Assembly (NCBI RefSeq): GCF_058153355.1
Contig: NZ_CM177019.1
Reading direction: 5' to 3' (one strand)
Length of the DNA: 64,000 nt
This document shows, piece by piece, positions 55,501-58,500 of the stretch (the first letter of the stretch is position 1; each line of letters starts with the position of its first letter). Made by a program: the position numbers.

Positions 55501-58500
55501 CTTCCCAAAGATTATCCTTGCGACCACGTAATCCATCAGTTTCCCCTGCCAAATTCAGTTCATAAACTTTACGTGCTTCACGGGTTACTGGGCCGTTATC
55601 ACTGGTAAAAATAACGATGGTGTTATCTTCTTCACCCATCGCTTTGATTTTATCCAGTACTTTTCCAACCTGAGCATCCAGATAACTGATGTTGGCATAA
55701 TATTCTCCTGTACCACGCCAGGGTTTATCCGCCCAGTCGCCATAAAATAAATCAGGATGCTGCTTCTGATAGTCGCTCATATAATGTGAGTACATGTCGA
55801 GGTATTTTTTGGGCGAAGCCAGGGGACTGTGCACTTCGGTAAAAGCGACATAAAGGAAGAAAGGCTTACTATCCTTTTTGTTATCCAACCAGTTAACGAC
55901 TTCCGAACTGACATACTCACCACTCATTTTATCGGCACGAGGTGTGGGTTGCCCGTTACGCAACCAACCCGTCGGATACACCATACCAAAACGGGGACGC
56001 TCCTTCGCATTATCCAGAGTAGCGTCGGTAACAAAACCCGCCGTATTAACCAGTGAGTAATCAAAGCCCATATCTTTTGCCTGAGGCTGATCGGTACGAT
56101 CGCCGCCTGCATTCAGATGCAGCTTACCCATCATGGCCGTGTCATACCCTTGCGCTTTGAGTAGATTAGCAATCGTGAGTTCATTACGCCCTAATGCCAC
56201 ATCTTTTCCCGTTGGGATCCATGAACGTATGCCGGTACGAAATGGCATCCGCCCCGTTAATAACCCCGCTCGCGAAGGAGAACTTAAGGGAGCTGGTGCA
56301 TAGTAGTCAGTAAATTTGACCCCTTCCTGGGCAAGCCTGTCGATATTAGGTGTTTTAACGATCTGATGACCATATGTTGCTAAATCGCCATAACCTAAAT
56401 CATCCGCCATAATAATGACTAAATTAGGTTGTTTAGCCTCTGCGGCTAAGGCAGGACTAAAAGCATTCCCTGTGCAAACTGCAAGGCCGATCAAACTGGC
56501 CATTAACGTTTTCTGCATAATTATTCCCTGATAAAAAATTAGAAATCATAACCAAGCATATAAATCATTTGATCGCCAAAGCCATCGTAGCCCAGCTTAT
56601 TATCGAAATAACGCCACGTCACACTGGCTTTCCAGCGAGGATAGAACTTCCAGGCAATAGTTAAACCGCCATTTAACCCGTTCCGGCCAAATTGCTGCTC
56701 CGTGTAAGCATCGTTCCTGTCCAGTTCTATTTCATTCCAGTTAGATAAAACAAATTTTTCGTCAAATAACATAAATGGCAATACTGCTGTCCAGCCAACA
56801 ACATAACCATTCCAACCATTCGTTTGACCATATTTAGCTGATACGTAGTCACCAGATTGATTATGTAATCCAATATACGGTTTAAAAAAGCCCCACTCGC
56901 CGTTCCAGCCGAGGTAACCGAATCCATAAAACATGTCCAGATCGTCACCCCATGAGTTATCCCATTGGCCATAAATTTTGCCAAAGAATGTCATATCAGA
57001 GTCAAAGAGTCTGACATGCGTCATTGCTGAAACCGTATGATTTCTCCCTGCTACAGCATGATTGAGTACATTACTTTCATAAAATGAGTAAAATTCTGCT
57101 TCTTTAAAATTTACCCCAAAATCCGCAGTCACTTTCCATACTTCACCACGGTGAGTGTTTACAAATCCACTATTCCAGTCTGCATAACCCGCATTTATTG
57201 AACCAAAGGTTCCTTTATATTCTAATGAAGAATATGCAGGAAAATGATAGATAGCTGTTATCAGGGTACACGCAATAAGAAGTCGTCTTTTGGCAGACAT
57301 ATAATATGTTCTCCATTCATTGTTTTTATGATTCCATAGGAATTAATACACCAGACAATTCATTTTTATTAAGAATGACCAGGACAGTATATTTAAAGAT
57401 GACTATCGAAGCGTGATGAAGATCGCAGATTACTTTTGCGAACGGGCGGAGAGATATCGTGTTTCAGAAAATGTGTCTGTTTTAAATATCACCCTTTGAT
57501 TTATAGGCATTTTTCATGATGAACTTAGCATTGACTGCTGAACGTATTTCTTTGTCTCTCTATAGTATTACACTAACCTTTAATAATTAATTTCCTTTAG
57601 CTATTCACTTTTGAAAGAGGAAAACACCTTTTTTTGTGAATCCCTGGATATATTTAAGTTAAATAAATTGATGTATTGAAATATTATTCCGTAAAAATGC
57701 GAGGCGTCTTCAGAAAAAGAATTGATAAAACAGAAGTGAATTAAAAGCGCTGTATAATAGCGGCGGGTGCTTGAGGCTATCTGTCTCAGGCATTAGCTGA
57801 ACGGCAGATAGAGAAAAGCCCCGAGTGATATTTTACCATCAACCCGAGGCCCCCTATATGCTGAACACATGTAGAGTGCCTCTTACTGACCGTAAGGTCA
57901 AGGAGAAGAGAGCAATGAAGCAGCATAAGGCGATGATTGTCGCCCTGATCGTCATCTGTATCACCGCCGTAGTGGCGGCGCTGGTAACGAGAAAAGACCT
58001 CTGTGAGGTTCACATCCGAACTGGCCAGACGGAGGTTGCTGTTTTCACGGCTTACGAATCCGGGTAAGAGCAACGGCGGGGAGTGATCCCCGCCACTTTA
58101 CAGGTGCTCGCATATCTTCAACGCACCCTGTTTTTTACCTGGCCTGCCCACGGGCAGGCTTTTGGGGAGGTTAGCGAGTCAGGTCGTCGAAAAACTTCTT
58201 CACACCATCAAAGAAGCTCTTTGAACGCGGGCTGTTGTGCTCGCCGGTTGGGCCACCGAAGCTTTCCTGCAGCTCTTGCAGCAGCTGTTTCTGCTTCTCG
58301 TTCAGACCTACCGGTGTTTCGACGACAACGCGGCACAGCAAGTCACCTTGCGCACCGCCGCGAACAGACTTGACGCCTTTACCGCGCATACGGAACAGCT
58401 TACCGGTCTGGGTTTCGCCAGGCACTTTCAGTTTGACGCGACCATCAAGGGTCGGTACTTCGATTTCGCCACCCAGCGCTGCCATAGCGAAGTTGATCGG

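What the first reader, a model, noticed from the sequence alone, without database searches (positions are those of the whole stretch)
57812..58159. hokC/mokC/sokC type I toxin-antitoxin locus not interrupted by an IS element, abutting an accessory island
In K-12 the hokC locus lies next to an IS186 copy and is regarded as inactivated. Here hokC ends 103 bp from the convergent dnaJ stop with only two GC-rich hairpins between them, so the hok mRNA 3' fold-back region may be intact and the system functional. On the other side the locus directly borders the sulfatase island, which marks this as an integration hotspot.
Basis: partly seen in the sequence, partly recalled or inferred. Interest (0 to 1): 0.4.

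Follow-up and report, generated by a model that had tools for sequence, protein, structure and literature searches.

The report
Intact hokC toxin–antitoxin locus, ordinary
This is the well-known E. coli hokC/mokC/sokC small-toxin/antisense-RNA locus in its usual wild-type form, without the IS186 insertion that laboratory strain K-12 carries, so it is correctly identified but ordinary.

Summary
mokC (57858-58067) and hokC (57915-58067) lie on the + strand, SokC antisense RNA on the – strand (57866→57808), and 103 bp separate hokC from the convergent dnaJ stop. The window equals K-12 with IS186 cleanly absent.

Every regulatory element of the plasmid R1 hok/sok model is present:
- The 5' tac box (57765-57776) pairs with a 3' fbi box (58116-58128) at probability 0.99.
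- The ucb, mok Shine-Dalgarno and dcb boxes are present.
- The SokC promoter is identical to K-12's.
- A 3' hairpin and a terminator follow the coding region.

Eight other hok loci keep the same 5'-3' pairing, with compensatory changes.

This is not new. IS-free hokC was studied in 1999 (strain ECOR24). About 69% of 5,426 complete E. coli genomes are uninterrupted. The IS-free, island-adjacent arrangement was already tabulated for strain NRG857c.

The clearest insertion hotspot is on the dnaJ side, not the island side. The 3' hairpin is the window's only GGGG(N6)CCCC site, the IS186 target motif. About 30% of genomes carry IS186 there, in either orientation.

Whether the locus kills cells was not testable. 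Interest is low.

The parts
57753..57758 (+). hokC/mokC promoter -10 box TATAAT, with a poor -35. The predicted transcription start is G57765.
   Evidence: Read directly from the sequence. It aligns with the R1 hok promoter and start. The Rfam leader model begins at 57765. The consensus scanner found no 9/12 promoter here because the -35 is weak.
57765..58163 (+). Predicted full-length hokC mRNA (399 nt).
   Evidence: MFE is -167.4 kcal/mol, z = -5.9 against shuffles. The overall architecture parallels the R1-like control folded the same way.
57765..57776 (+). tac (translational activator) box GGGUGCUUGAGG at the mRNA 5' end.
   Evidence: It pairs with fbi in the full-length fold. It pairs with ucb once the 3' end is removed. 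It forms a local hairpin with 57783-57794 in nascent 30-50-nt transcripts.
57816..57822 (+). ucb box AAGCCCC.
   Evidence: It pairs with the mok SD in the full-length fold and with tac in the truncated fold. The same tac/ucb stem is in the Rfam RF01794 consensus.
57808..57866 (-). SokC antisense RNA (59 nt), complementary to the mokC SD and start codon.
   Evidence: Coordinates were transferred from K-12 b4413. The fold has a 9-nt single-stranded 5' tail, a stem-loop and a U-rich tail; -23.1 kcal/mol, z = -4.95.
57873..57901 (-). SokC promoter: -35 TTGACC (57901→57896), 17-nt spacer, -10 CACTCT (57878→57873).
   Evidence: Read directly from the sequence. It aligns with R1 TTGCGC-17-TATCCT and is identical to K-12.
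57846..57850 (+). mokC Shine-Dalgarno GAGGC.
   Evidence: It lies 8 nt before the mokC ATG. It is sequestered by ucb in the full-length fold and paired with dcb in the truncated fold.
57858..58067 (+). mokC leader/overlap ORF (69 codons, in frame with hokC).
   Evidence: ORF list. Same extent as K-12 b0018.
57878..57882 (+). dcb box GCCUC. Together with the mok SD it closes the Sok-target hairpin, whose loop carries CUGA (a YUNR-type motif, 57861-57864).
   Evidence: Truncated-mRNA fold and Rfam consensus structure.
57915..58067 (+). hokC toxin ORF (50 aa), preceded by SD AAGGAG (57900-57905).
   Evidence: Pfam HOK_GEF E=4.6e-24. It is 98% identical to K-12 HokC, the one difference being E50G caused by A→G at 58063.
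58075..58094 (+). 3' hairpin GGCGGGG-AGUGAU-CCCCGCC. It is the probable stop for 3' exonucleolytic trimming (inferred) and an unoccupied IS186 target site (GGGG-N6-CCCC at 58078-58091).
   Evidence: Fold. It is the only such motif in the 64-kb window. IS186 sits here in K-12, HS and JNQH497 with target duplication GGAGTGATCC. The target motif is from PMC5009759.
58116..58128 (+). fbi (fold-back inhibitory) box CUUCAACGCACCC.
   Evidence: 12 bp with one bulged C (58122) against tac, probability 0.99. Homologous boxes sit at the same relative position in other hok loci.
58141..58163 (+). Terminator hairpin (GGCCUGCC-CACG-GGCAGGCU, stem 58141-58160) overlapping a UUUU run (58160-63). It lies 10 nt from the dnaJ stop.
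   Evidence: Fold. The analogous terminal hairpin follows fbi in the R1-like locus.
53640..57646 (.). Context: a 4-kb accessory segment (426-aa Zn-finger protein, sulfatase, OmpK/Tsx-like porin) that replaces 78 bp of K-12.
   Evidence: BLAST against K-12 and Rb-50. Pfam and NCBIfam matches. GC is about 36-46% against about 49-57% in the hokC-dnaJ-dnaK side flank. It is present in about a quarter of genomes.

Best explanation
The region is a complete chromosomal hok/sok-type type I toxin-antitoxin module (hokC/mokC/sokC, historically gef/sof) in its IS-free state.

The proposed mechanism follows plasmid R1 hok/sok. These steps are inferred from sequence and folding, not measured:
1. A weak promoter makes a ~399-nt mRNA.
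2. While the transcript is nascent, tac is held in a local hairpin.
3. In the finished transcript the 5' tac box pairs with the 3' fbi box, and ucb covers the mokC ribosome-binding site. The mRNA is then stable, untranslatable and closed to SokC.
4. Slow 3' trimming back to the GGGG-N6-CCCC hairpin removes fbi.
5. tac then switches to ucb, and the mok SD pairs with dcb in a target hairpin.
6. The RNA is now either bound by the short-lived SokC RNA and destroyed, or, if SokC has decayed, translated through mokC into the 50-aa membrane toxin HokC.

In K-12 and about 30% of E. coli genomes, IS186 has inserted into that 3' hairpin. This separates fbi from the gene, and the 5' end is then predicted to sit permanently in the open form.
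For: - Identity: Pfam HOK_GEF. The Rfam hok-leader model scores 120.5 bits, with tac/ucb and SD/dcb stems. RefSeq annotates mokC in all neighbours.
- No IS: the alignment to K-12 is colinear except for IS186.
- tac-fbi pairing: it appears in the MFE with P=0.99. The R1-like positive control gives the same result.
- Switch on truncation: removing the 3' end switches tac to ucb and forms the SD/dcb hairpin. The K-12 IS186-fused transcript adopts this open 5' fold. This matches the published model (PMC9841398).
- Conservation with covariation: hokD-like prophage loci (56 distinct sequences), two divergent prophage loci, IncHI1 and IncHI2 plasmid loci and a Photobacterium plasmid locus all pair their 5' end with a box 350-395 nt downstream. 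Pairs change on both sides, for example U-A to C-G at tac position 4 in R1 and at position 7 in L087, and the whole inner half in L086. The bulged base varies C/U/A/absent.
- SokC: its promoter and RNA are identical to K-12 apart from one base, and it folds as a 5' tail plus terminator stem-loop.
- Literature: IS-free hokC from ECOR24 gives a ~330-nt transcript, and IS186 is thought to disrupt fbi (PMC3562002). 57765 + 330 falls at the end of the 58075-58094 hairpin.
Against: - No expression or toxicity data exist for this strain.
- The SokC -10 (CACTCT) and the hokC -35 are poor consensus matches, and the promoter scanner found nothing.
- A duplex-energy shuffle test of tac against the GC-rich 96-nt 3' UTR alone is only modestly significant (117 of 5000 shuffles as good). 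The case for fbi therefore rests on position and conservation rather than energy.
- Chromosomal hok loci were reported not to show the killer activity of plasmid hok/sok (as summarised in PMC6733600).
- HokC carries a rare E50G change at its last residue. The effect is unknown, although R1 Hok has Gly at the aligned position.
Confidence: 0.85

Rival explanations
1. The locus is architecturally intact but physiologically quiet. At chromosomal dosage it does not kill. It may act as a mild stress or persistence module, as proposed for hokB, or it may be a neutral selfish remnant. In that case the presence or absence of IS186 makes little phenotypic difference.
For: Chromosomal hok homologues were believed not to retain killer activity (PMC6733600 citing Pedersen and Gerdes 1999). 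About 30% of genomes tolerate IS186 in the 3' hairpin. In K-12, sokC knock-down is still deleterious despite IS186 (preprint), which blurs the intact-versus-inactivated contrast.
Against: Every regulatory box is conserved across E. coli; nearly all genomes are at least 95% identical over the 421-nt locus. The boxes are also conserved across distant hok loci with compensatory changes, which argues for continuing selection on the RNA switch. R1 hok expressed from the chromosome without Sok is lethal (PMC9841398).
Confidence: 0.35
2. The 5'-3' complementarity is a coincidence of GC-rich sequence, and the two hairpins are simply the terminators of hokC and dnaJ. There would then be no functional fold-back element.
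For: 2.3% of dinucleotide shuffles of the 3' UTR give an equally stable duplex with tac. The second hairpin lies only 10 nt from the dnaJ stop.
Against: The same pairing recurs at the same relative position in all nine hok loci compared here (this one, the R1-like control and seven others). The 3' UTRs are otherwise divergent, and base changes are compensated. Loci that are not next to dnaJ have the same hairpin-fbi-terminator order.
Confidence: 0.03
3. The IS-free state here is secondary. IS186 was once present and has excised precisely, so the locus is a revertant rather than the ancestral form.
For: IS186 is active, and this site is one of its rare specific targets (PMC5009759).
Against: The window has a single copy of the 10-bp target and no scar. 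The empty site is the majority state, in 3769 of 5426 genomes. Only one IS excision was seen among 857 events in mutation-accumulation lines.
Confidence: 0.03

Closest known systems
hokC/mokC/sokC (gef/sof) of E. coli K-12 (b4412, b0018, b4413)
   Same: Same chromosomal position between nhaA and dnaJ. The leader, SokC region and coding sequence are the same apart from two positions within the mRNA upstream of the IS186 site: 57852 (C/T) and 58063, which gives HokC E50G.
   Different: K-12 has IS186A inserted in the 3' hairpin, 19 bp after the stop codon. This separates fbi and the terminator from the gene by 1.3 kb. The window has the empty site.
IS-free hokC of natural isolates (ECOR24, Pedersen and Gerdes 1999; hok-1 of AIEC NRG857c)
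   Same: The IS-free arrangement is shared. For NRG857c the published table also notes 'close to GI' (PMC7232551; PMC3562002). The reported ~330-nt transcript fits a 3' end at the 58075-58094 hairpin.
   Different: The closest complete genome (Rb-50) differs by one base in 421 nt.
hok/mok/sok of plasmid R1
   Same: The order of elements is the same: promoter, tac, ucb, Sok target, mok, dcb, hok, 3' hairpin, fbi, terminator. The predicted closed and open folds match. The Sok promoter lies inside mok in both.
   Different: Hok identity is only 42%. mokC is in frame with hokC, whereas R1 mok is out of frame (56 nt against 57 nt between the start codons). The location is chromosomal, and post-segregational killing of plasmid-free cells is not applicable.
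hokE/sokE of K-12 with IS186B
   Same: IS186 is inserted in the equivalent 3' hairpin (GCGGGG-AGTAAT-CCCCGC) with a 10-bp duplication GGAGTAATCC, and a tac-complementary box lies beyond the IS.
   Different: It is a different paralogue at a different locus, between ybdK and entD.

Membership tests
hok/sok type I toxin-antitoxin family | A ~50-aa Hok/Gef membrane toxin ORF. | tested here: met
   Pfam PF01848 HOK_GEF E=4.6e-24, full-length domain match. 98% identical to K-12 HokC and 42% to R1 Hok.
hok/sok type I toxin-antitoxin family | An overlapping upstream mok reading frame with its own SD, through which hok is translated. | tested here: met
   An intact 69-codon ORF at 57858-58067, with GAGG 8 nt upstream. 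Translational coupling itself is not testable here.
hok/sok type I toxin-antitoxin family | A cis-encoded antisense Sok RNA, with its own promoter, covering the mok translation-initiation region. | tested here: met
   The region matches the annotated K-12 sokC with one base difference, and the promoter is identical. The predicted RNA has a 5' tail plus terminator stem-loop. Expression is not testable here.
hok/sok type I toxin-antitoxin family | A conserved leader structure (tac/ucb stem, Sok-target hairpin closed by mok SD/dcb). | tested here: met
   Rfam RF01794 scores 120.5 bits (gathering score 59) over the full model 1-157, on the mRNA strand. The same stems appear in the truncated-mRNA fold.
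hok/sok type I toxin-antitoxin family | Long-range 5' tac to 3' fbi pairing that closes the full-length mRNA. | tested here: met
   12 bp, P=0.99. It is conserved, with compensatory changes, in R1-like and seven other loci. The energy-only shuffle test gives p≈0.02.
hok/sok type I toxin-antitoxin family | Slow 3' processing to a truncated, active mRNA; RNase III cleavage of the Sok duplex; killing when Sok decays. | not testable with these tools
   Only the 3' hairpin that would stop exonucleases is visible. The ECOR24 transcript size comes from the literature.
IS186 target site | 5'-GGGG(N6/N7)CCCC-3' flanking the duplicated core, with insertion in either orientation. | tested here: met
   GGGGAGTGATCCCC at 58078-58091 is the only match in the window. 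The site is occupied in both orientations in other genomes, with the same duplication. The motif is from PMC5009759.
Genomic island at an integration hotspot | Integrase or recombinase, tRNA or att site, flanking direct repeats, atypical composition, alternative cargo at the same site. | tested here: inconclusive
   GC is lower (36-46%) and presence/absence is polymorphic (about a quarter of genomes). No flanking repeats were seen at the junction sequences inspected by eye, and no tRNA or integrase was identified. The only transposase-related content is a transposase-like Zn-finger domain protein. Only two states (the island or a 78-bp filler) were seen.

The most novel reading that the evidence does not exclude
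The hairpin that marks the mature 3' end of hok-type mRNAs happens to be a perfect IS186 landing site. IS186 has therefore struck hokC repeatedly; both orientations are each found in roughly one in six complete genomes, and the equivalent hairpin of hokE is hit in K-12. On this reading IS186 acts as a recurrent, possibly selected, population-level switch that uncouples fbi from the toxin gene. The empty-site allele in this strain would then be the conditionally lethal 'on' form. A more speculative variant is that read-through from the heat-induced, convergent dnaKJ operon, which lacks a U-tract after the shared hairpin, makes RNA antisense to fbi and so couples hokC activation to heat shock.
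Probability: 0.2. Interest if true: 0.35.

Novelty: already known. Interest (0 to 1): 0.1.

Why it matters
It matters little beyond correct annotation. The window shows the wild-type form of a locus usually described from its IS186-disrupted K-12 copy, and that form is the majority state in E. coli. It is useful as a reminder that K-12 is atypical here. It also marks this strain as one of many suitable backgrounds for testing whether chromosomal hokC is a real killer or persistence module. The link between the IS186 target motif and the hok 3' hairpin is a tidy explanation for why IS186 sits just downstream of hok genes, but it is incremental.

Tried and rejected
- The consensus promoter scan of 57500-58300 found no sigma-70 site. 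Both promoters have one weak hexamer, so they were located by alignment to R1 and K-12 instead.
- The terminator scan missed both 3' hairpins, because their T-runs are short.
- A permissive Rfam search of 57600-58300 gave only chance-level extra hits, rpsL_pseudo and ceN47.
- The F plasmid record AP001918 and the review PMC2593563 were not in the held collections.
- Two viral-contig scans returned mainly hokD-like prophage copies with the same tac as hokC. They added conservation evidence but little covariation. Diversity came from two divergent prophage loci and three plasmid loci.
- The duplex-energy shuffle test of tac against the 3' UTR was only modestly significant and is not used as the main argument.
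- The junction counts (3769 + 831 + 953) exceed 5426 genomes by about 130. The cause was not established; genomes with more than one hokC-like copy are a possibility. The percentages are therefore approximate.
- No formal covariation test with the count of structure pairs was run, because bulge positions differ between loci. Pair changes were read from the individual folds.

Full report
**What is there.** The window is an E. coli chromosome segment in the reverse of K-12 orientation. The gene order is:
- nhaR, then nhaA;
- an IS110-family element;
- a 4-kb segment with a Zn-finger protein, a sulfatase and an OmpK/Tsx-like porin;
- mokC/hokC on the + strand;
- dnaJ and dnaK on the – strand.

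mokC runs 57858-58067 and hokC 57915-58067, in the same frame. Pfam HOK_GEF matches at E=4.6e-24. The dnaJ stop codon is at 58171-58173, so the gap is exactly 103 bp. Rfam RF01794 'sok' hits 57765-57917 at 120.5 bits. The stated start (57812) omits the promoter and the 5' tac box.

**Comparison with K-12.** K-12 has IS186A 19 bp after the hokC stop. Pairwise alignment shows the window is colinear with K-12 once IS186 and one copy of its 10-bp target duplication (GGAGTGATCC) are removed. Within the mRNA upstream of the IS186 site there are two other differences: C/T at 57852, and A→G at 58063, which changes the last HokC residue from E to G. The SokC promoter (TTGACC-17-CACTCT, – strand) and the SokC sequence otherwise match K-12, where sokC is an annotated ncRNA. 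So the Sok promoter is not lost.

**The fold-back element.**
- Folding the predicted 399-nt mRNA (57765-58163) pairs the 5' GGGUGCUUGAGG with CUUCAACGCACCC at 58116-58128. This is 12 bp with one bulge, at mean probability 0.99. The whole-molecule z-score is -5.9.
- An R1-like hok/sok locus folded the same way gives the expected tac/fbi pairing, which serves as a positive control.
- Truncating the hokC RNA to the first 3' hairpin makes tac switch to AAGCCCC (ucb, 57816-57822). The mok SD GAGGC then pairs with GCCUC (dcb, 57878-57882). This reproduces the published closed-to-open switch (model in PMC9841398).
- The K-12 transcript fused to IS186 is predicted to sit in the open 5' fold.
- Nascent 30-50-nt transcripts fold tac into a local hairpin, the expected metastable structure.

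**Conservation.**
- 56 distinct hokD-like prophage loci keep the same tac and a CCUCAA(C/U/A)GCACCC box 370-395 nt downstream. The bulged base varies freely.
- More distant loci keep the pairing through changes on both sides:
  - L087: GGGUGCCUGA / UCAGGCACCC.
  - L086: GGGUGCUCUGGAUC / GAUCCAUGAGCACCC.
  - R1-like: GGCGCUUGAG / CUGAAGCGCC.
  - IncHI1 and IncHI2 plasmids: GGUGCUGG… / …GGCACC.
  - A Photobacterium plasmid: a perfect 12-bp version.
- By duplex energy alone the match is only modestly unusual, with 2.3% of shuffles as good. Position and covariation carry the argument.

**How common it is.**
- Of 5,426 complete E. coli genomes, 3,769 have hokC contiguous with dnaJ.
- About 831 carry the K-12-type IS186 junction.
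- About 953 carry IS186 in the opposite orientation at the same site, for example HS and JNQH497.
- These counts overlap slightly and are approximate.
- The sulfatase segment is present in roughly a quarter of genomes. Some alleles are as divergent as 89.6%.

**Prior knowledge.**
- IS-free hokC from ECOR24 was characterised by Pedersen and Gerdes in 1999. It gives a ~330-nt transcript, and IS186 in K-12 is thought to disrupt fbi (PMC3562002).
- For AIEC strain NRG857c, the hokC homologue is tabulated as IS-free and 'close to GI' (PMC7232551).
- A CRISPRi preprint reports that sokC knock-down is deleterious even in MG1655.
- The finding is therefore already known.

**Where the hotspot is.**
- The 3' hairpin contains GGGGAGTGATCCCC (58078-58091), the window's only match to the IS186 target motif GGGG(N6/N7)CCCC (motif and either-orientation insertion in PMC5009759).
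- In K-12, hokE carries IS186B in the equivalent hairpin.
- The island side shows lower GC and presence/absence polymorphism. It has no integrase, tRNA or flanking repeats.

**Verdict.** This is a correct identification of a canonical, apparently intact hok/sok-type module in its common wild-type configuration. Killing activity remains untested. Interest is low.

Noticed in passing
window 51617-53554: Relative to K-12 and strain Rb-50, the window has a ~212-bp tandem duplication of the nhaA 5' end and promoter region (51617-51828 and 51825-52036). A ~1.5-kb IS110-family element follows immediately (52037-53554; transposase ORF 52114-53289). The duplication lies on one side of the IS, not flanking it.
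   Followed up: partly
window 57765-57917 (+): The Rfam family RF01794, named 'sok antitoxin', matches the hok mRNA strand. Its consensus structure is the hok leader (tac/ucb stem, Sok-target hairpin, ending at the hok AUG), not the antisense Sok RNA.
   Followed up: yes
window 58078-58091; L002, L004, L005, L157: IS186 occupies this exact hairpin in both orientations, with the same 10-bp duplication. Each orientation is found in roughly one in six complete E. coli genomes. K-12 hokE has IS186B in the equivalent hairpin. The hok 3' hairpin fits the rare IS186 target motif.
   Followed up: partly
window 58063: An A→G change makes the last HokC residue Gly instead of Glu. No complete E. coli genome in the collection matches the 421-nt locus exactly, and the best match differs only at this base.
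   Followed up: partly
window 53640-57646: The sulfatase/OmpK-like segment exists as at least two diverged alleles, about 98% and about 89.6% identical to the window. This suggests an old polymorphism rather than a recent insertion.
   Followed up: no
window 59302-59379 (-) and 34734-34786 (-): Rfam gathering-level hits to the sRNA families tpke11 (dnaK-dnaJ spacer) and ES003.
   Followed up: no
window 58141-58173: The hairpin next to the dnaJ stop has a U-run only in the hokC direction. On the dnaJ strand it is followed by an A-rich stretch, so dnaKJ transcripts might read into the hokC 3' UTR. This was read from the sequence and not tested.
   Followed up: no
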